From IMG/VR virus record IMGVR_UViG_2671180631_000001: a stretch of 7,580 bases of DNA. One strand, 5' to 3'. Below the pieces are notes generated by a model, which was given only the letters and a program-made list of their open reading frames with translations, made no database searches and had not been told where the DNA came from. A program made the position numbers and the translations under genes. Below are positions 1 to 7,580 of the stretch, one piece after another (within the stretch, counting starts at the first letter, position 1; every line of letters starts with the position of its first letter). The DNA comes from a virus. Lineage: Duplodnaviria; Heunggongvirae; Uroviricota; Caudoviricetes.

Positions 1-34
1 CTCCAATGACTAGTCTAAAAACTAGTATTAAGAC

Positions 35-54
35 TATCACTTATTTAAGTGATA
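35..54. repeat. Perfect 9-bp inverted repeat TATCACTTA-tt-TAAGTGATA (operator-like 20-bp dyad) in AT-rich sequence upstream of the endolysin
   Basis: Read directly: 35-43 tatcactta, 44-45 tt, 46-54 taagtgata; the right arm is the exact reverse complement of the left arm. The existence of the repeat is certain, its function is unknown. Confidence 0.6.
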
Positions 55-108
55 CTGGTTGTCTGGAGATTCAGGGGGCCAGTCTAGTAAGGCTGCGAGA
101 GGTGAATA

Positions 109-500
109 ATGTCGCCATCATTACGCAAGGCTGTTGCAGTTGCTATTGGTGGCGGGGCTGTTGCTATAGCATCTGTGTTAATCACTGGCCCAGGTGGTAA
201 CGATGGTCTGGAAGGTGTCAGCTACATACTATACAAAGATATCATTGGTGTATGGACTGTATGTCACGGACACACCGGAAAAGACATCATGCCTGGTAAA
301 ACGTATACCGAAGCAGAATGCAAAGCTCTCCTGAATAAAGACCTTGCCACTGTCGCCAGACAAATTAACCCGTACATCAAAGTCGATATACCGGAAACAA
401 CGCGCGGCGCTCTTTACTCGTTCGTTTACAACGTGGGCGCTGGCAATTTCAGAACATCGACGCTTCTTCGCAAAATAAACCAGGGCTATATCAAAGGCGC
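109..500 (+). CDS. SAR endolysin (phage lysozyme, P21 R-like), 3' end lost in the N-gap
   Basis: ATG at 109 in a TAATG stop/start overlap. N-terminal Gly/Ala-rich weakly hydrophobic segment ([18 protein letters not shown]) typical of a signal-arrest-release domain, followed by a T4-lysozyme-like catalytic region (GLEGVSY...[16 protein letters not shown]). The frame runs straight into the N run at 501, so about 35 C-terminal codons are missing if the full length is ~165 aa as in P21 R. Confidence 0.9.
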
Positions 501-551
501 NNNNNNNNNNNNNNNNNNNNNNNNNNNNNNNNNNNNNNNNNNNNNNNNNNN
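501..551. other. Assembly gap or masked segment (51 N)
   Basis: Uninterrupted run of n at 501-551. Flanking gene content shows the true missing length is much larger than 51 bp (see findings). Confidence 0.95.
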
Positions 552-734
552 AAATGCCCTGTGCCATCCTCAGCCGAAACCTCCAGCGCCTCCGGCATGG
601 GCAATGATGCCACCGTCGAACTCTCTCCAGTTGCTGGACGAAACGTTCTCGGTATCCGGGACGGAATCATCAGCGACCAGACAGCATTGAGAATGCTTCA
701 GGAGTACATCAGGATCCAATGCCTTGGGGGGTAG
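552..734 (+). CDS. Rz-like i-spanin, C-terminal 60 codons only (5' part lies in the gap)
   Basis: The frame starting at 552 translates to KCPVPSSAETSSASGMGNDATVELSPVAGRNVLGIRDGIISDQTALRMLQEYIRIQCLGG, ending at TAG 732-734. This matches the pattern of the lambda Rz C-terminus as I recall it (…ASGVDNAASPRLADTAERDYFTLRERLITMQKQLEGTQKYINEQCR), including the penultimate conserved Cys. Confidence 0.8.
   Translation, partial: KCPVPSSAETSSASGMGNDATVELSPVAGRNVLGIRDGIISDQTALRMLQEYIRIQCLGG
553..690 (+). CDS. Rz1-like o-spanin (proline-rich lipoprotein), 3' part, embedded in the +1 frame of Rz
   Basis: The frame starting at 553 gives NALCHPQPKPPAPPAWAMMPPSNSLQLLDETFSVSGTESSATRQH, ending at TGA 688-690. 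CxxxPKPPAPPAW matches the lambda Rz1 core (QCVKPPPPPAW). It lies wholly inside the Rz frame, the classic embedded-spanin architecture. Start codon and lipobox are in the gap. Confidence 0.8.
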   Translation, partial: NALCHPQPKPPAPPAWAMMPPSNSLQLLDETFSVSGTESSATRQH

Positions 735-822
735 CGGTAATTTTACTCATTATCCTTCAAATCAGATTCTGTTGTCAGAGGAATGGGGGAAGCTGGATTC
801 GCAAGAGCTTTTTATGGGCAGT

Positions 823-1335
823 TTAGCTAAAAAAAGGCAACACGAAGCTAAAACTACCAACATAAAGTGCTGACCAGCTAGCAGCTGAAATCAGACTCAC
901 TGTATACACTTTCACTGGATGAAGTTGCAACATTCCTGCCACCAAAGGAGCAATATAACGCAGCACGGCGATAAAGCGCGAAGTGAAAAGTATTGACACA
1001 GAGTTATTTTGCAACTGAAGGCGAACCCGTTCTATTGTATTGGAACGGCTTGATATTATACATGCAAGTTGAGGGATATGCCCAATTATTATACCAAGAT
1101 GGTAATTAACGATAGTACCGCACCATGCGCCACTCATGACCGTGATTCCAGCTTCCCATGGTGAAAGAGTCGTCTTGCTGACTGTAATTACAGTGGCCAT
1201 CATAATTGATGCTGGTGGCAATATCGCCGAAATGAGTAAAGTGGATTTTGTGAACGCTATTATAAAAAGAAGCCCCCATAGGCGATATGGATGAAGTACA
1301 AAATAGTTCATCAAAGCATTTATCCACTCCATCAA
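823..1335 (-). CDS. DedA/YqaA-like (COG1238-type) polytopic inner-membrane protein; AT-rich cargo (moron) gene
   Basis: 170-codon minus-strand ORF with stop TAA (reverse complement of 823-825). TTG at 1335 is immediately followed by ATG at 1332, with AAGGAAAG 7-10 nt upstream. The product is hydrophobic with a YqaA-like pattern (ILPPAS...SPWEAGI...GAWCGTIVNYHLGIIIG...). Sampled 60-nt blocks are about 35-45% GC against about 55% in the phage structural genes. Family assignment is from recalled similarity, not a search. Confidence 0.6.
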   Translation of the reverse strand: MMEWINALMNYFVLHPYRLWGLLFIIAFTKSTLLISAILPPASIMMATVITVSKTTLSPWEAGITVMSGAWCGTIVNYHLGIIIGHIPQLACIISSRSNTIERVRLQLQNNSVSILFTSRFIAVLRYIAPLVAGMLQLHPVKVYTVSLISAASWSALYVGSFSFVLPFFS

Positions 1336-1529
1336 TGTCTTTCCTTCTGTGAATTTTTCTTTGCTATTTAACCGTGATACGACTTAATTTAGGCTTAAAC
1401 ACCTTACATTTACAAGGTACTCCTGTGGGGGGCCCTGCCACGGAGCGTCGCAGGAGTGAGTGATGAGGAAGAATTAAAGCAACCTATTGTGACAGGCAGC
1501 GATAACAGTAAATCACAGGAAGCATAATC

Positions 1530-2294
1530 ATGGCAAAACCGGACTGGGAGGCCATCGAATCGGCATACCGGGCCGGAGTCCTTAGCCTCCGTGATATAGG
1601 CGAGAAATACGGCGTTACAGAAGGGGCTATCAGGAAGAGGGCCAAAAAGCTTGGTTGGGCACGCAGTGGCGGTACGCAGGTTTGCAAAAATGGTACGCAA
1701 AAAAGGAAAGTGCGTACCAGCAGAAAGCCTGCCATTACTGGCCTTACACAAAAAAGTACGCAACTAAAAACAGAATCTACACCGGATACGAAACCGATAC
1801 GCGGAATGCGTACCGATCCCCCGACTAACCCATTCCAACCCGGTAACCAGCAGGCATTAAAACACGGTGGTTATGCCCGTCGCCTTCTGCTCAAAGATGA
1901 GGTGATAGAGGACGCTAAAGCGTTGACGCTCGAGGACGAATTATTTCGCCTTCGTGCTAACAACCTTGTCGCTGCAGAGAATATTGGTCGGTGGTTGGTG
2001 TCGCTGGAAGATGCTAATGGGGACCAGGAAAGGAAGATGCTGATTGAAAATATCAGCGCCGCCGAGAAAGCAATGATGCGCAATACAGTTCGTATTGAGT
2101 CCATCGTTGGCACGCTTGCGACGGTAGGAAAAATATTTGCTGATACAGCCTACCGCAAGGCCGCCACTGATAAGGTGTCTCTGGAGGCTGATCGTCTTCG
2201 CCGTGATGCAGGTATTGATGATGGCAATGGAGAGCGTGACCTCAATGACTTCTACTCTGACATCCAAACCGACGCTGAATCCGGCTTTACGTAG
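1530..2294 (+). CDS. Terminase small subunit (TerS) with N-terminal helix-turn-helix
   Basis: ATG at 1530 with AGGA 9 nt upstream; 254 codons; stop TAG 2292-2294. N-terminal HTH-like segment (SLRDIGEKYGVTEGAIRKRAKKLGW) followed by a basic/Thr-rich linker. Lies immediately upstream of the large terminase subunit. Confidence 0.8.
   Translation: MAKPDWEAIESAYRAGVLSLRDIGEKYGVTEGAIRKRAKKLGWARSGGTQVCKNGTQKRKVRTSRKPAITGLTQKSTQLKTESTPDTKPIRGMRTDPPTNPFQPGNQQALKHGGYARRLLLKDEVIEDAKALTLEDELFRLRANNLVAAENIGRWLVSLEDANGDQERKMLIENISAAEKAMMRNTVRIESIVGTLATVGKIFADTAYRKAATDKVSLEADRLRRDAGIDDGNGERDLNDFYSDIQTDAESGFT
1671..1814. repeat. Cluster of five GGTACGCA / TGCGTACC copies with flanking A-tracts inside terS (candidate pac or TerS recognition site)
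   Basis: GGTACGCA at 1671-1678 and 1692-1699; reverse complement TGCGTACC at 1711-1718 and 1807-1814; GTACGCA at 1756-1762. A5-6 tracts at 1686-1690, 1699-1704, 1750-1755 and 1766-1770. Copies in both orientations argue for a DNA-level rather than peptide-level constraint. Confidence 0.5.
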
Positions 2295-3648
2295 TTTCTG
2301 GACTATGCGGGCACGTAACAAAGTGCTTTATGGTGGTCGGTCATCGTCAAAATCATGGGATGCCGCTGGCATTGCCATATTTCTGTCGAATAAATACACC
2401 CTGCGTTTTTGTTGTGCCCGTCAGATCCAGAATAAAATCGAAGAGTCGGTGTATACCCTGCTCAAAATTCAGATAGACAGGTTTGGTCTGCGGCACCGTT
2501 TCCGTATTCTGAACAACAAAATCATTAACCGGGTTACTGGCTCGGAATTTGTTTTTTATGGATTATGGCGCAACATCGAAGAAATTAAGTCACTGGAGGG
2601 GATCGATGTGTTGTGGCTGGAAGAAGCCCACGCACTGACGGAATACCAGTGGAAAATTCTGGAGCCAACGATCCGTAAAGAGGGTTCGGAATGCTGGTTC
2701 ATATTCAACCCCGGACTTGTTACTGATTTCGTCTGGCGCAACTTCGTTGTTGATCCGCCCGAAGGCACTCTCATCCGCAAAATTAACTATGACGAAAATC
2801 CGTTTCTGTCTGACACCATGCTTAAGGTTATCGACGCGGCGCGACGCCGTGATCCGGATGGTTTTAAACATGTGTATGAGGGCGTTCCGGAGTCTGATGA
2901 TGATGCGGCAATCATCAAACTGTCTTGGATAGAAGCCGCAGTGGATGCGCACAAAACGTTAAATTTCGAACCCAGTGGAAGAAAGCGTATTGGCTTTGAC
3001 GTGGCTGACAGTGGTACAGATAAGTGCGCTAACGTTTACCGTCACGGATCCGTTGTTTTCTGGGCCGACGAATGGAAGGCCAAAGAAGATGAATTACTGA
3101 AGAGCTGCCAGCGTACTTATCAGGCGGCGCTGGAGCGTGAAGCAGATATTGTTTACGACTCTATCGGTGTTGGTGCGTCTGCCGGTGCTAAATTCTCTGA
3201 AATTAACGCTGACCGGAAGAGCGAGAACGCATACGCGCGACGTGTGAATTACCAGAGGTTTAACGCCGGTGCTGGTGTGCATGAGCCAGATGACGAGTAC
3301 AACGGCATCCCCAACAAAGACTTTTTCGCAAATCTTAAGGCTCAGGCATGGTGGCTGGTGGCTGACCGTTTCAGAAATACGTTTAACGCCATTAACAACG
3401 GAGAACAGTATCCTGTGGATGAGCTGATCAGCATAGATTCTCGTTGTCCGTTGCTTGAAAAGCTGAAACTGGAACTGACAACACCTCATCGTGATTTCGA
3501 CCGTAACGGACGTGTGATGGTCGAAAGTAAAAAAGACCTCGCAAAACGCGAGATACCGTCACCAAACGTTGCTGATGCATTCATTATGGCCTTCGCGCCA
3601 ATCGATACATCGCTGGATATCTGGGAACAGCTGGGGAGACAGGCCTGA
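2245..3648 (+). CDS. Terminase large subunit (TerL), PBSX-type ATPase plus nuclease
   Basis: Open frame from 2137 to TGA 3646-3648. Walker A-like YGGRSSSKS, Walker B-like IDVLWLEEAH, and C-terminal nuclease acidic motifs (FDVADSG, IVYDSIG, NVADAFIMA). The start is ambiguous: ATG 2245 (GGAGAG 10 nt upstream, overlaps the terS 3' end) is chosen here; alternatives are ATG 2218/2221/2227 or ATG 2305 (11 nt after the terS stop, no clear SD). Confidence 0.9.
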   Translation: MTSTLTSKPTLNPALRSFWTMRARNKVLYGGRSSSKSWDAAGIAIFLSNKYTLRFCCARQIQNKIEESVYTLLKIQIDRFGLRHRFRILNNKIINRVTGSEFVFYGLWRNIEEIKSLEGIDVLWLEEAHALTEYQWKILEPTIRKEGSECWFIFNPGLVTDFVWRNFVVDPPEGTLIRKINYDENPFLSDTMLKVIDAARRRDPDGFKHVYEGVPESDDDAAIIKLSWIEAAVDAHKTLNFEPSGRKRIGFDVADSGTDKCANVYRHGSVVFWADEWKAKEDELLKSCQRTYQAALEREADIVYDSIGVGASAGAKFSEINADRKSENAYARRVNYQRFNAGAGVHEPDDEYNGIPNKDFFANLKAQAWWLVADRFRNTFNAINNGEQYPVDELISIDSRCPLLEKLKLELTTPHRDFDRNGRVMVESKKDLAKREIPSPNVADAFIMAFAPIDTSLDIWEQLGRQA

Positions 3649-5114
3649 TGGCACGAAACAAACAAGCCCTGCGGCGAACTGTGCAGGCCACAGCTGATGG
3701 TTATGAGAATTTTATTGCCCGCGTAGGGATGCAGACACCTAACCAGCACTCAGCATCCACCTACCGGGCTAATTTCACCAGTCGTAACCGCATGCTGGTG
3801 GAATGGTCCTATCGTTCATCCTAGATCATCGGCGAAGCAGTCGATGCTATCCCGGATGATATGACCCGCAAAGGCATTCGCATCACTTCGGAAATTGATG
3901 CAAAAGATCGTGGCATTCTCGAATCACAACTGGATGAGTTGCAAATCTGGGATGCGCTGAATGACGTGCTGAAATGGTCGCGCCTCTACGGCGGCGCGGT
4001 GGGTTTCATCATGATTGAGGGGTAGGCACCAATGACCCCGCTGCGACCCGAAACCATCGGTAAGGGCAAGTTTAAGGGGATTCTCCCGCTCGACCGCTGG
4101 ATGGTCGACCCGGCACTGACCCGCCGCATTAAAGATATGGGGCCGGACCTGGGTAAACCTGAGTTTTACGATGTGGTGACCACAGCAACGGGAATTCCTG
4201 CCTGGCGCATTCATCACAGTCGCCTGATTCGCTTTGATGGCGTCACGTTGCCATTTCAGCAGAAGATGACCGAGAACGAATGGGGAATGTCGGTTGTAGA
4301 GCGTATCTGGGATCGTCTTACCGCGTTCGACAGCGCTACTGTCGGCGCGGCGCAGCTGGTCTACAAGGCGCATTTGCGTACCTACAGCGTGGAGAAGCTA
4401 CGCGAGCTTATCGCACTTGGTGGTCCTGCGTATGAAGCGTTGCTGAAGAATATCGACCTGATTCGACAGTTCCAGAGTAATGAAGGCATGACGCTCATGG
4501 ACTCGCGGGATAAGTTTGAAACCCATCAGTACAGCTTCAGTGGTCTGGATGACATCCTTTCGCAGTTTGTAGAACAGATTAGTGGCGCTGTTGGTATCCC
4601 ACTGGTGCGGTTGTTCGGACAGTCCCCGAAAGGATTTTCTACCGGTGATGCAGACCTTGCCAACTATTACGATCGCATCAGTTCGTTGCAGGAGAGGCGT
4701 TTACGTCTTCCGGTGCGGCGGATACTGGACATCATGCATCGTTCGGAACTTGGCAAGCCGCTGCCGGACGATTTCACGTTTGAGTTTAACCCGCTCTGGC
4801 AAATGTCTGATGTCGATCGCTCAACGGTGGCGTTAAACACCACCAACGCAATCAGTACGGCGCTGGGTGATGGTCTGATGACACTGAAAGCCGCTATGAC
4901 TGATTTGCGAGAAAATTCTGACGTAACCGGCATCGGGGCATCCATTACCGACGAGGACATCGAGAATGCCGAAGATGAAGCGCCGCCCGGCATCGGCGAA
5001 CCTGATGACGAACCGCAGGAGCCGTCAGGCGGAAATCCGGTATCGAACCAGCCTACGCAGGATAGCGAGGGCGGTCGGAGACATCGTAAATGGTCGCTAC
5101 GATGGTTCAAATGA
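3648..5114 (+). pseudogene. Portal protein gene interrupted by two in-frame TAG codons (3822-3824 and 4023-4025); longest intact segment is 4032-5114
   Basis: ATG 3648 overlaps the TerL stop (TGATG). One frame runs 489 codons to TGA 5112-5114 except for TAG at codons 59 and 126. The translation across both stops reads as one protein (…NRMLVEWSYRSS*IIGEAVDAIPDDMTRKGIRI…GGAVGFIMIEG*APMTPLRPETIGKGKFKGILPLDRWMVDP…), with an acidic C-terminal tail typical of portals. Confidence 0.8.
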
Positions 5115-5748
5115 CAGTATCACGGAAATTATTGCGGCGCTGGAGCGTTACAGTGAAATCATCACCCCCTGGGCGACAAAGGTCGCGGAAAACTTTACTG
5201 CGGACCTAACCCGGCAGAACGAGAAAGTTTGGCGGCAACACAGCAAGAACATCAGTCGCGAGCTCCGCAATCTTGTGGAAAGCGCTCCTGTGGGCCAGGT
5301 GATGCAATCCATCATCGCCGAACAGGTCAAGTACATCAAATCTCTGCCTCTCGAGGCCGCAGACAGGGTGTACGACATCCAGAACAAAGCGATAGAGGCT
5401 GTTGTCACCGGTGGTCGGGCGGAGCAGTTTGCTAAAGAGATTGCATCTACCGGCGATGTTGCTAAGTCTAGGGCCGATCTGATTGCCCGAACGGAACTGG
5501 GAAGAGCAACGGGCGCGCTGGATATGGCCCGAGCGATAGCTATTGGCTCGGATGGTTATATTTGGCGTACAGCCGATGATGGCGATGTCCGAGATTCCCA
5601 CGATCACATGAAAGGTAAATTCGTCCGCTGGGATTCACCTCCAACTTTGGACGGCATGACCGGCCACGCGGGCGAGCTGCCAAACTGCCGCTGCTATAAA
5701 GAGATCGTGTTTGTTCGCGTTCCATTCGCAATGAAAAGGGCAGCATAA
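4966..5748 (+). CDS. Head morphogenesis protein, Mu F / SPP1 gp7-like minor head protein
   Basis: ATG 4966 with GAGGA 8 nt upstream; 260 codons; stop TAA 5746-5748. Conserved Mu-F-type motif YIWRTADDGDVRDSHDHMKGKFVRWDSPP. The 5' end overlaps the portal 3' end by 149 nt in another frame. Confidence 0.85.
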   Translation: MPKMKRRPASANLMTNRRSRQAEIRYRTSLRRIARAVGDIVNGRYDGSNDSITEIIAALERYSEIITPWATKVAENFTADLTRQNEKVWRQHSKNISRELRNLVESAPVGQVMQSIIAEQVKYIKSLPLEAADRVYDIQNKAIEAVVTGGRAEQFAKEIASTGDVAKSRADLIARTELGRATGALDMARAIAIGSDGYIWRTADDGDVRDSHDHMKGKFVRWDSPPTLDGMTGHAGELPNCRCYKEIVFVRVPFAMKRAA

Positions 5749-5751
5749 CCC

Positions 5752-6972
5752 ATGAAATACTTTTTTGAGACCAGGCTCGGGGAAACCCGATACCGCCTGG
5801 CTGACGGCTCGTTGCTGTGCAAAGACGTGCCGATAGGACGAACAGGTAAGCAGCTCTATGGTGCTGATGACCTGCCAAAACTGAAACCCGATAAGTTCGG
5901 TGAAATAGTCGTCACGCGTTCTCCTGAGCAGGTATTCCATCCGGCCACGCTTGCCTCATTCGAAGGGATGAGCATCACGATCCTGCATCCTGAAGATGAA
6001 AACGGGAATGTGCGGCTGGTAAATCCCGAGAACTGGAAAGAGCTTGCTGTCGGGCACCTCCAGAATGTCCGGCGCGGGACGGGTGAGCAGTCTGATTTGA
6101 TGCTGGCTGACCTTATCGTCAAAGACGAAAGCGCCATTCAGCTTATCGAAGATGGCCTGCGCGAAGTGTCGTGCGGCTATGACGCGGAGTACGAGCAGAC
6201 CGAGCCAGGTAAAGCCGAGCAGGTCGATATTACCGGAAACCATGTGGCTCTTGTCCCTAAAGGCAGAGCCGGAAATCGTTGTGCAATTGGAGACAGAGAC
6301 ACAATGGCAAATCAAAAGAAAAACTGGTGGAACCGCATGCGTGCGGCCATCAAGACAGGAGATGCCGACACCATGAACGAACTGGTGGAGTCGGCTCCCG
6401 CATCGGTTACAGGAGATGAGGGGGATTTGCCGCAGGGCGTTAATCTCAACATCAACCTGTCCCCGCAGCAACCACTACCGGACAAAGCACCAGAGATGGG
6501 CGGAGATCCAACCGGCGACAGTGATGATGACCTCAAAACATTACTGAAAGCCCTGCTGGCTAAGCTGGAAAGAAATGCCACGGGCGATAACGATAATAAG
6601 CCTGACGATAATCCGACCGGTGACGGCGAGGACGATGAAGAGGAAACCACGATTACTGGTGACTCAGCCTGGCGTGCCGAAGTTATCGTTCCGGGTATCG
6701 ATCTGAGCCGTAAGATGAAACCGACCGCGTTCAAACGCGAGGTTCTGGCTTCTGCTGACAAAACGCTGGTTCGCCAGATAGTCGGTGATGCGGATATCCG
6801 CAAATTACCGAAACAATCGGTCGACATGGCGTTTAATGCCGTGTCTGAGGTTGCCAAAGGGCGAAACACCCGCGCCACCACCGGCGATGCACAGCGCCTA
6901 AACATGGGCATGACCAGTATCGCTTCCCTGAACAAACAAAACGCTGAATTCTGGGCAAACCGTAAAGGGTAA
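5752..6972 (+). CDS. Head scaffolding / prohead-maturation-like protein (conserved N-terminal domain, possibly DUF2213-type, plus acidic low-complexity C-terminal half)
   Basis: ATG 5752, 3 nt after the previous stop; 406 codons; stop TAA 6970-6972. N-terminal about 180 aa globular, with HP...GH...SCGYDAEYE...GNHVALVPKGRAGNRCAIGD. C-terminal half is D/E/G/T-rich with repeated TGD motifs, typical of scaffolding proteins. Position between the Mu-F-like gene and the downstream head genes fits. Family name is from memory. Confidence 0.65.
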   Translation: MKYFFETRLGETRYRLADGSLLCKDVPIGRTGKQLYGADDLPKLKPDKFGEIVVTRSPEQVFHPATLASFEGMSITILHPEDENGNVRLVNPENWKELAVGHLQNVRRGTGEQSDLMLADLIVKDESAIQLIEDGLREVSCGYDAEYEQTEPGKAEQVDITGNHVALVPKGRAGNRCAIGDRDTMANQKKNWWNRMRAAIKTGDADTMNELVESAPASVTGDEGDLPQGVNLNINLSPQQPLPDKAPEMGGDPTGDSDDDLKTLLKALLAKLERNATGDNDNKPDDNPTGDGEDDEEETTITGDSAWRAEVIVPGIDLSRKMKPTAFKREVLASADKTLVRQIVGDADIRKLPKQSVDMAFNAVSEVAKGRNTRATTGDAQRLNMGMTSIASLNKQNAEFWANRKG

Positions 6973-6975
6973 AAA

Positions 6976-7482
6976 ATGAATAATGTATTTCTGTACCGGA
7001 TGCCTGTTGGCATTGCCGGGGCTGTCTCTCGCCCGCAGGACTTAACCGTCGAACCGGTGGTCCTTAAATCCGATAACGCCTTCGCTGCCTATGGCCTGGC
7101 TGGTAAATACGATGATGACGGTTTTTTCGTGCCGCTGGCAGATGGTGATACCGCAGACAAGGTGAAGGGGATCTACGTGCGCCCTTATCCGACCACGTCG
7201 CAGCCGGACATGGTTCGCCAGGTGGGAACAGGCAAGAACTTCCCGGGCGACGCCATGAAGCGTGGCTACGTGACCGTTAATCTCGGTTCTGATTTTGATG
7301 CCAGCACTATCAAAAAAGGCGATCCGGTATACGTTGTCGTCTCCACTGATGAATCCATCAAAGTGCCGCTGGGTGGATTCATGTCCACGTCAGTCAGTGG
7401 CAAAAACGTGGTGCTGACCAACGCTGAATTCACAGGTGCCGGTGATGCTGACGGCAATGCAGAAATTTCCTGGAAGATTTAA
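6976..7482 (+). CDS. Head-module protein of unknown function (possible capsid accessory or decoration protein)
   Basis: ATG 6976 with AAGGG 7 nt upstream, 3 nt after the previous stop; 168 codons; stop TAA 7480-7482. Same strand and tight spacing as the morphogenesis operon. No motif recognised with confidence. Confidence 0.55.
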   Translation: MNNVFLYRMPVGIAGAVSRPQDLTVEPVVLKSDNAFAAYGLAGKYDDDGFFVPLADGDTADKVKGIYVRPYPTTSQPDMVRQVGTGKNFPGDAMKRGYVTVNLGSDFDASTIKKGDPVYVVVSTDESIKVPLGGFMSTSVSGKNVVLTNAEFTGAGDADGNAEISWKI

Positions 7483-7497
7483 GGAACAGACGAATGA

Positions 7498-7520
7498 GGT
7501 GATGCTGCCAACTTACTGAT
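7498..7520 (+). repeat. IS1 left terminal inverted repeat (IRL)
   Basis: GGTGATGCTGCCAACTTACTGAT read at 7498-7520, matching the IS1 terminus as I recall it. Confidence 0.85.
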
Positions 7521-7552
7521 TTAGTGTATGATGGTGTTTTTGAGGTGCTCCA

Positions 7553-7580
7553 GTGGCTTCTGTTTCTATCAGCTGTCCCT
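7553..7580 (+). CDS. insA: IS1 InsA (transposition regulator), 5' partial, truncated by the window end
   Basis: GTG 7553 followed by GCT TCT GTT TCT ATC AGC TGT CCC, giving (M)ASVSISCP, the known InsA N-terminus. Confidence 0.85.

What the first reader, a model, noticed from the sequence alone, without database searches (positions are those of the whole stretch)
501..551. The 51-N gap hides several hundred bp: the endolysin 3' end and the Rz/Rz1 5' ends are missing
The endolysin enters the gap with about 130 codons read (P21-R-type enzymes are about 165 aa as I recall). The sequence leaving the gap is already about 60 codons from the end of Rz (lambda Rz is about 150 aa) and in the middle of Rz1. 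Roughly 0.35-0.4 kb must therefore be missing, so the N run is a placeholder of arbitrary length, not a 51-bp unknown. Because 51 is a multiple of three, ORF callers fuse the endolysin and Rz1 into one artefactual 193-aa ORF (109-690).
Basis: inference. Interest (0 to 1): 0.35.

Follow-up and report, generated by a model that had tools for sequence, protein, structure and literature searches.

The report
Assembly gap inside a prophage lysis cassette
The run of 51 N is a mis-sized assembly gap: finished Shigella sonnei chromosomes that match every determined base of the window have 390 bp there, holding the end of the phage lysozyme gene and the starts of the two spanin genes, so this is an ordinary artefact in a well-known gene cluster.

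Summary
Window 501-551 is the only N run and is exactly 51 N. The ORF lister does produce a 193-aa ORF (109-690) that reads straight through it.

A chromosome-scale contig (L019) is 100% identical to window 1-500 and 552-7580, and has 390 bp between those two stretches. Nine more finished loci also have exactly 390 bp, including Shigella sonnei 53G, as does one IMG/VR contig with the same IS2 and IS1 junctions. No sequence with a 36-66 bp spacing turned up anywhere. The window is therefore 339 bp short.

The hidden 390 bp hold:
- the last 106 nt of a 165-aa P21-R/RrrD-type SAR endolysin;
- the first 96 codons of a 156-aa Rz;
- the first 68 nt of a 68-aa Rz1, which cover its signal peptide and lipobox cysteine.

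Endolysin and Rz1 share a reading frame in the intact sequence. The N run hides the three stop codons between them, so the 193-aa fusion is an artefact.

The gap lies inside a 712-bp stretch that is identical between different lambdoid lysis cassettes, so a repeat-induced contig break is the likely cause. That step is inferred.

The context is a decayed prophage: IS2 sits in the holin gene, the portal gene has two nonsense codons, and IS1 cuts off the right end. Interest is low and nothing here is new.

The parts
1..86 (-). Terminal 86 bp of an IS2 copy. The element lies on the minus strand and continues to the left of the window.
   Evidence: Window 1-500 is 100% identical to L019 1631-2130. 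The adjoining L019 380-1716 is 99.8-99.9% identical to elements annotated 'IS3-like element IS2 family transposase'. The genes called there are 121 aa and 301 aa with PF01527 and PF00665.
87..109 (+). 3' remnant of the class II holin gene: the last 7 codons plus the stop. Bases 87-91 (GTAAG) are one copy of the 5-bp IS2 target duplication. The stop TAA (107-109) overlaps the endolysin ATG.
   Evidence: Window 87-500 aligns to L001 7001-7414, where the holin is annotated at 6808-7023. GTAAG occurs on both sides of IS2 in L019. The holin 5' part upstream of IS2 carries PF04971.
109..500 (+). SAR endolysin (P21 R / RrrD type, GH24 lysozyme), codons 1-130 plus 2 nt. The last 35 codons including the stop are hidden.
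   Evidence: PF00959 at E=1e-31 for the visible 130 aa and 1e-43 for the restored 165 aa. Full-length matches to PDB 4zpu (Lysozyme RrrD) and 3hde, both aligned over residues 1-165.
501..551 (.). 51 N: a scaffold gap that stands in for 390 bp (L019 2131-2520).
   Evidence: the flanks map 390 bp apart. (17 loci, all with exactly 390 bp). (no locus with 36-66 bp). (five finished chromosomes identical across the gap).
552..734 (+). Rz (i-spanin) codons 97-156 plus the stop. The first 96 codons, including the N-terminal transmembrane segment, are hidden.
   Evidence: The restored 156-aa protein matches PF03245 at E=1e-29; the visible 60 aa match profile positions 75-125 of 126. Coordinates.
553..690 (+). 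Rz1 (o-spanin lipoprotein) codons 24-68 plus the stop. It is embedded in the +1 frame of Rz and lies in the same frame as the endolysin. The signal peptide and lipobox Cys19 are hidden.
   Evidence: The restored 68-aa protein matches PF06085 at E=4e-21, and the visible 45 aa at E=3e-18.
823..1335 (-). DedA-family membrane protein gene on the opposite strand, between the lysis genes and the terminase genes.
   Evidence: Annotated 'DedA family protein' in L001. PF09335 VTT_dom in L019-L025.
7498..7580 (+). First 83 bp of an IS1 copy that cuts off the prophage.
   Evidence: Homology to L001 ends at window 7497. L019 9467-10240 is 99.5-99.7% identical to 'IS1-like element IS1A family transposase'. 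PF03811 and PF03400 are on the genes called there.

Best explanation
The 51 N are a scaffold gap of wrong length in a draft assembly of a Shigella sonnei-type genome. Two contigs (window 1-500 and 552-7580) were joined in the correct order and orientation, but 390 bp of real sequence between them were left out and replaced by 51 N.

The missing 390 bp carry the last 35 codons (including the stop) of a 165-aa SAR endolysin, the first 96 codons of Rz, and the first 22.7 codons of Rz1. Endolysin and Rz1 lie in the same frame, and the N run hides the three stop codons between them. That is why the 193-aa ORF at 109-690 appears, and it is an artefact.

The break most likely happened because this part of the lysis cassette is a repeat. 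A 712-bp stretch (window 295-500, the 390 bp, and window 552-667) is identical between lysis cassettes that have different flanks, and such cassettes are usually present in several copies per genome.

Shown: the size and content of the missing piece, and that the join is real.
Inferred: the reason the assembler broke there, and how the number 51 arose.
For: 1. L019, a 4.8-Mb contig, is 100% identical to window 1-500 and 552-7580, with 390 bp between them and no N.
2. All 10 chromosome-scale loci that encode the window's truncated portal ORF have the two flank anchors exactly 390 bp apart, as do L001, L002, L007, L008, L010, L011 and L014.
3. Five of the chromosome loci, including S. sonnei 53G (HE616528.1; named in PMC5447701), are identical to each other across the 1090 bp that span the gap.
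4. IMG/VR contig 2671180821_000008 has the same IS2 and IS1 junctions. It is collinear with the window plus 339 bp and reads through the gap.
5. A 36-66 bp spacing gave 0 hits in viral contigs, genome contigs and all fetched loci.
6. All 25 phage records listed imply 390 or 482 bp. In one search, the 10 two-piece E. coli rows imply 390 bp, and the 15 three-piece rows span more still. None implies about 51 bp.
7. The restored proteins are full-length members of PF00959, PF03245 and PF06085, and the endolysin aligns over residues 1-165 with PDB 4zpu and 3hde.
8. Repeat nature: L002 and L007 are identical over 712 bp around the gap but differ on either side. The 712 bp occur in 4987 of 5426 E. 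coli genomes, with a median of 2 and up to 9 places per genome. An exact 89-mer from the gap occurs in 2-3 proviruses of the same genome in three IMG genomes.
Against: The N themselves cannot be read, so the content is inferred from identical relatives and not from the source strain. I could not show that the source genome, or any S. sonnei genome, holds a second copy of the 712-bp stretch, so the repeat explanation for the break is untested. Several other assemblies read through this region without breaking (L010, L032), so the repeat does not always stop an assembler. How a scaffolder arrived at 51 is unexplained.
Confidence: 0.93

Rival explanations
1. The gap is literally about 51 bp. The source strain would carry a real 339-bp in-frame deletion that fuses the endolysin to Rz1, and the N are 51 uncalled bases.
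For: 339 is a multiple of three, so an in-frame fusion is formally possible. Nothing in the window itself fixes the gap length.
Against: Both flanks are 100% identical to finished chromosomes that have 390 bp. No sequence with a 36-66 bp spacing exists in viral contigs, genome contigs or the fetched loci. A unique 51-bp junction would normally assemble without N (inference).
Confidence: 0.02
2. The gap hides more than the 390 bp, or something different. Examples are a strain-specific IS insertion or rearrangement in Rz, or the 482-bp variant seen in some phages.
For: Other contigs with the same Rz 3' end have unrelated sequence joined inside Rz at several positions; I read this as IS insertions (L009, L013, L018, L012, L016). 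Eight of the 25 phage records listed imply 482 bp.
Against: The two inner contig ends are native sequence 390 bp apart. They carry no foreign end sequence, unlike the outer ends of the window, which run 86 and 83 bp into IS2 and IS1. A simple insertion would put both contig ends at one site. All same-lineage finished sequences have 390 bp.
Confidence: 0.04
3. The scaffold is chimeric. The left contig (IS2 plus the endolysin 5' part) and the right contig (Rz 3' end, DedA, terminase) would belong to two different prophages and were joined wrongly through the shared repeat.
For: L002 has the identical IS2 junction and left flank (500/500) but continues into a different Rz 3' end and a different downstream region. 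L007 has the identical right flank and IS1 junction but a different endolysin 5' part and an intact holin region without IS2.
Against: Ten chromosome-scale contigs, including S. sonnei 53G, and IMG contig 2671180821_000008 carry exactly the window's combination: IS2, this endolysin, Rz, DedA and so on up to IS1.
Confidence: 0.01

Closest known systems
Defective lambdoid prophage of Shigella sonnei (for example strain 53G, HE616528.1, positions 784769-797851)
   Same: Every determined base of the window is identical to L019. L019 is in turn identical to 53G over the 1090 bp around the gap. Gene order, the IS2 and IS1 junctions and the three-piece portal are also the same.
   Different: The window lacks 339 bp because the 390-bp stretch is written as 51 N.
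Phage P21 lysis cassette (SAR endolysin R, Rz/Rz1) and E. coli RrrD of the DLP12 prophage (PDB 3hde, 3hdf, 4zpu). Assigning 3hde/3hdf to P21 is from my memory; the tool lists them only as 'Lysozyme'.
   Same: A 165-aa GH24 lysozyme that aligns over its full length (E=1e-104/1e-103). It has a Gly/Ala-rich N-terminal segment and residues E35, D44 and T50. Rz follows with a 4-nt overlap, and Rz1 is embedded in the +1 frame of Rz.
   Different: Point substitutions relative to RrrD: P41L, D127Y and, in the hidden part, R135C. The holin is cut by IS2, so the cassette is unlikely to work as a lysis system (inference).
Scaffold gaps of estimated or unknown length in draft assemblies
   Same: An N run between two correctly ordered contigs, with the real sequence longer than the N run. 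It lies in sequence that is repeated among prophages.
   Different: 51 is not one of the round placeholder lengths I know of (my own knowledge). The origin of the number was not determined.

Membership tests
Assembly (scaffold) gap of wrong length | N run flanked by sequence that is collinear with closed genomes | tested here: met
   Window 1-500 and 552-7580 are 100% identical to L019 1631-2130 and 2521-9549, in the same order and strand.
Assembly (scaffold) gap of wrong length | Closed relatives have a different length at the gap, and none matches the N-run length | tested here: met
   Exactly 390 bp in 17 loci. No locus and no collection hit with 36-66 bp.
Assembly (scaffold) gap of wrong length | The missing stretch is repeated within the source genome (the cause of the break) | not testable with these tools
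   The source genome and its reads are not available. Indirect evidence only: a 712-bp identity between different cassettes, and multi-copy presence in E. coli and in some IMG genomes.
GH24 phage lysozyme, SAR-endolysin type (P21 R / RrrD) | Phage_lysozyme (PF00959) domain above the Pfam cut-off | tested here: met
   149 bits against a cut-off of 22.3 for the restored protein; 110 bits for the visible 130 aa.
GH24 phage lysozyme, SAR-endolysin type (P21 R / RrrD) | Full-length similarity to solved SAR endolysins of 165 aa | tested here: met
   4zpu (RrrD) and 3hde align over residues 1-165 at E=3e-104 and 2e-103.
GH24 phage lysozyme, SAR-endolysin type (P21 R / RrrD) | N-terminal weakly hydrophobic signal-anchor-release segment and the Glu-Asp-Thr catalytic residues | tested here: met
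   Read directly from the sequence: residues 8-26 are [19 protein letters not shown], and E35, D44 and T50 are present. They align with the same residues of RrrD. That these residues are the catalytic ones is from my own knowledge of P21 R. Membrane release was not tested.
Rz i-spanin | Phage_lysis (PF03245) domain and an N-terminal transmembrane segment | tested here: met
   103.8 bits against a cut-off of 25.4. The hydrophobic N-terminus VTAIISALVICIIVRLSW lies in the hidden part and was read from L019. It contains an Arg where L001 has Cys.
Rz1 o-spanin | Rz1 (PF06085) domain, a gene embedded in the +1 frame of Rz, and a lipoprotein signal with a lipobox Cys | tested here: met
   75 bits against a cut-off of 27.9. 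The ATG is in frame +1 of Rz. The signal MRKLKMMLFGASLIMVVGC, with Cys19, lies in the hidden part and was read from L019.
Functional holin-endolysin-spanin lysis cassette | Intact holin gene upstream of the endolysin | tested here: not met
   IS2 is inserted 7 codons before the holin stop, with a 5-bp duplication GTAAG. Whether the altered holin still works was not tested.

The most novel reading that the evidence does not exclude
In the particular strain that gave this window, the stretch behind the N run differs from the 390 bp of all finished relatives. It could be a real in-frame deletion that makes an endolysin-Rz1 fusion, or a strain-specific insertion or rearrangement in Rz.
Probability: 0.04. 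Interest if true: 0.15.

Novelty: already known. Interest (0 to 1): 0.05.

Why it matters
It matters only for annotation. The 193-aa ORF at 109-690 should not be reported as a protein. The endolysin, Rz and Rz1 of this window should be marked as partial at an assembly gap, and any coordinate to the right of 551 is 339 bp too low relative to the real chromosome. There is no biological novelty, because finished Shigella sonnei chromosomes already contain the complete sequence.

Tried and rejected
1. Chimeric scaffold. L002 (same left flank, different right flank) and L007 (same right flank, different left flank) made this look likely. It was rejected once 10 chromosome-scale contigs and IMG contig 2671180821_000008 showed the window's own combination.

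2. Search for closed sequences with about 51 bp. The first genome contigs pattern included the lineage-specific base at window 487 and was therefore over-specific. The relaxed pattern in viral contigs and in the fetched loci also found nothing.

3. Second genome-contig scan, for the IS2/holin junction, found nothing. I suspect, but did not check, that no genome of this lineage is among the species representatives.

4. Looking for a second copy of the repeat in the same genome as the window-like contig. Inconclusive.

5. The outer ends of the window run 86 nt into IS2 and 83 nt into IS1. I asked whether this points to a de Bruijn assembly with k of about 87, which would predict a second copy differing at about window 414 and 638. 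The locus scan was uninformative, and no whole S. sonnei genome can be read here. Dropped.

6. Only the first locus of each search reached the Python sandbox, so the other loci were read with get_sequence, DNA alignment and pattern scans.

Full report
**Observation.** Window 501-551 is a run of exactly 51 N and is the only N run in the 7580 bases.
- The mechanical ORF list contains a 193-aa ORF at 109-690 that reads through it: 17 all-N codons plus the codon NNA at 550-552, shown as 18 X.
- Left of the gap, the frame starting at 109 gives 130 whole codons plus 2 nt of a phage lysozyme.
- Right of the gap, two overlapping frames are open. One runs from 552 to the stop ending at 734 and ends ...EYIRIQCLGG. 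The other runs from 553 to the stop ending at 690 and is proline-rich (...CHPQPKPPAPPAW...).

**Size of the gap.**
- The closest complete E. coli genome (FDAARGOS_944, locus L001) matches window 87-500 at 99.5% and window 552-7497 at 99.9% without indels. The two matches lie 390 bp apart in L001.
- I then looked up the exact product of window ORF 4032-5114, a truncated portal fragment that marks this lineage. It is encoded on chromosome-scale contigs, and ten such loci were returned.
- One of them, L019 (GCA_965230885.1, a 4.8-Mb contig), is 100% identical to window 1-500 and to window 552-7580. It has 390 bp (L019 2131-2520) between the two and no N.
- All ten loci have the two flank anchors exactly 390 bp apart.
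- Five of them are identical to each other over the 1090 bp spanning the gap. One of these is L021 = HE616528.1, which PMC5447701 lists as Shigella sonnei 53G.
- IMG/VR contig 2671180821_000008 carries the same IS2 and IS1 junctions as the window. Its stored pieces add up to the window plus 339 bp, and it reads through the gap with the same 390 bp.
- A search for the two flank anchors 36-66 bp apart found nothing in viral contigs, in genome contigs (where the pattern was over-specific) or in any fetched locus.
- In one search, all 25 phage records listed imply 390 or 482 bp. In one search, the 10 two-piece E. coli rows imply 390 bp, and the 15 three-piece rows (for example E. coli 042) span more still. 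None implies about 51 bp.

So 390 bp are real and the window is 339 bp short.

**What is hidden.**

| Gene | Full length | Hidden | Visible in the window |
|---|---|---|---|
| Endolysin | 165 aa | last 106 nt | 130 codons plus 2 nt (109-500) |
| Rz | 156 aa | first 288 nt (96 codons, including the N-terminal hydrophobic segment) | 60 codons plus stop (552-734) |
| Rz1 | 68 aa | first 68 nt (signal peptide MRKLKMMLFGASLIMVVGC, lipobox Cys19, four more residues) | 45 codons plus stop (553-690) |

- The endolysin stop overlaps the Rz start (ATGA).
- Rz1 starts in the +1 frame of Rz.
- Rz1 lies in the same frame as the endolysin. Three stop codons separate them, and all three lie in the hidden 390 bp. 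That is why the N run produces one fused ORF.
- 390 is itself a multiple of three, so the frame relation in the window is the native one.

**Family tests.**
- The restored proteins match Pfam Phage_lysozyme PF00959 (149 bits), Phage_lysis PF03245 (104 bits) and Rz1 PF06085 (75 bits), all far above the cut-offs. The visible fragments match the corresponding parts of the profiles.
- The endolysin aligns over residues 1-165 with PDB 4zpu (Lysozyme RrrD) and 3hde.
- The Gly/Ala-rich N-terminal segment and E35, D44 and T50 are visible in the window.

**Why the gap is there (inferred).**
- Two other closed contigs show that the region around the gap is shared by different cassettes.
- L002 has the same IS2 junction and a left flank identical to window 1-500. 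After window 667 it continues into a different Rz end and different downstream genes.
- L007 has the same right flank and IS1 junction. Left of window 295 it has a different endolysin 5' part and an uninterrupted holin region.
- The two are identical over 712 bp: window 295-500, the 390 bp, and window 552-667.
- These 712 bp occur in 4987 of 5426 complete E. coli genomes, with a median of 2 and up to 9 places per genome.
- An exact 89-mer from the hidden part occurs in two or three proviruses of the same genome in three IMG genomes.
- A repeat of this length is a common cause of contig breaks in short-read assemblies. I could not check whether the source genome has a second copy, nor how the number 51 arose.
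- The window runs 86 nt into IS2 at its left end and 83 nt into IS1 at its right end. This suggests the window is a whole short-read scaffold bounded by insertion sequences.

**The chimera question.** L002 and L007 raised the possibility that the scaffold joins two different prophages. The ten chromosome-scale contigs and the IMG contig have exactly the window's combination. The join is therefore real.

**Context.** The window is a decayed lambdoid prophage.
- IS2 is inserted 7 codons before the holin stop, with a 5-bp duplication GTAAG.
- The portal gene has two nonsense codons relative to L001: W59* at window 3823 and Q126* at window 4023.
- IS1 cuts the element after the Gp24-like gene at 7497/7498. 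In the finished chromosomes, host-type genes follow the IS1.

**Verdict.** The N run is a mis-sized assembly gap in a well-known lysis cassette, and the 193-aa ORF is an artefact. Interest is low and the sequence is already known from finished genomes.

Noticed in passing
window 1-109: An IS2 copy on the minus strand is inserted 7 codons before the stop of the class II holin gene, with a 5-bp target duplication GTAAG (window 87-91 and L019 380-384). The holin loses its C-terminal tail AARGE and reads on into IS2.
   Followed up: yes
window 3648-5114: The portal gene (DUF1073 / Phage_portal_3; 488 aa in E. coli L001) carries two nonsense substitutions: TGG>TAG at 3823 (W59*) and CAG>TAG at 4023 (Q126*). 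It is called as three pieces of 58, 54 and 360 aa in nearly all the finished chromosomes read.
   Followed up: yes
window 7498-7580: An IS1A-type element cuts off the prophage right after the Gp24-like 'cement' gene (6976-7482). The DUF2184 gene that follows in E. coli L001 is gone. In the finished chromosomes, host-type genes (lactonase, LysR) follow the IS1.
   Followed up: partly
window 295-667 (with the hidden 390 bp); L002 2274-2985; L007 6914-7625: A 712-bp stretch is identical between lysis cassettes whose left and right flanks differ, with sharp boundaries at window 294/295 and 667/668. This looks like a mosaic recombination module shared among lambdoid prophages.
   Followed up: partly
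L002 (IMGVR_UViG_2526164617_000009), 1-3300: This 6.5-kb contig has the same IS2/holin junction and an endolysin 5' part identical to the window. It continues into a different Rz 3' end and a different packaging region (which I read as lambda-like) that is itself interrupted by a transposase gene. It is either a real recombinant across the 712-bp repeat or an assembly chimera.
   Followed up: no
L009, L013, L018, L012, L016 (alignment A1, columns about 1000-1180): In several contigs with the same Rz 3' end, unrelated sequence joins inside Rz at at least three different positions. I read these as insertion-sequence ends. Rz would then be a repeated target of IS insertion, or simply decaying, in these genomes.
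   Followed up: no
window 230 and 487; hidden part (L019 2144, 2284, 2503): Lineage-specific substitutions in the lysis proteins. Endolysin: P41L (between E35 and D44) and D127Y in the visible part, R135C in the hidden part. Rz, relative to L001: C18R inside the N-terminal hydrophobic segment and W91R, both in the hidden part. These may inactivate the proteins, which would fit a decaying prophage.
   Followed up: no
window 823-1335 (minus strand): A DedA-family (VTT domain) membrane protein gene sits on the opposite strand between the lysis genes and the small terminase gene, in the position typical of a phage 'moron'. It is identical in protein sequence to the E. coli L001 copy.
   Followed up: no
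whole window; statistics: The truncated portal ORF is listed in 2576 blocks of the assembly collection. In 2304 of them the longest contig carrying it is 5-10 kb. This fits a segment bounded by IS2 (or the lysis repeat) and IS1 in nearly all short-read assemblies of this lineage. The window's 7580 bases look like one such whole scaffold.
   Followed up: partly
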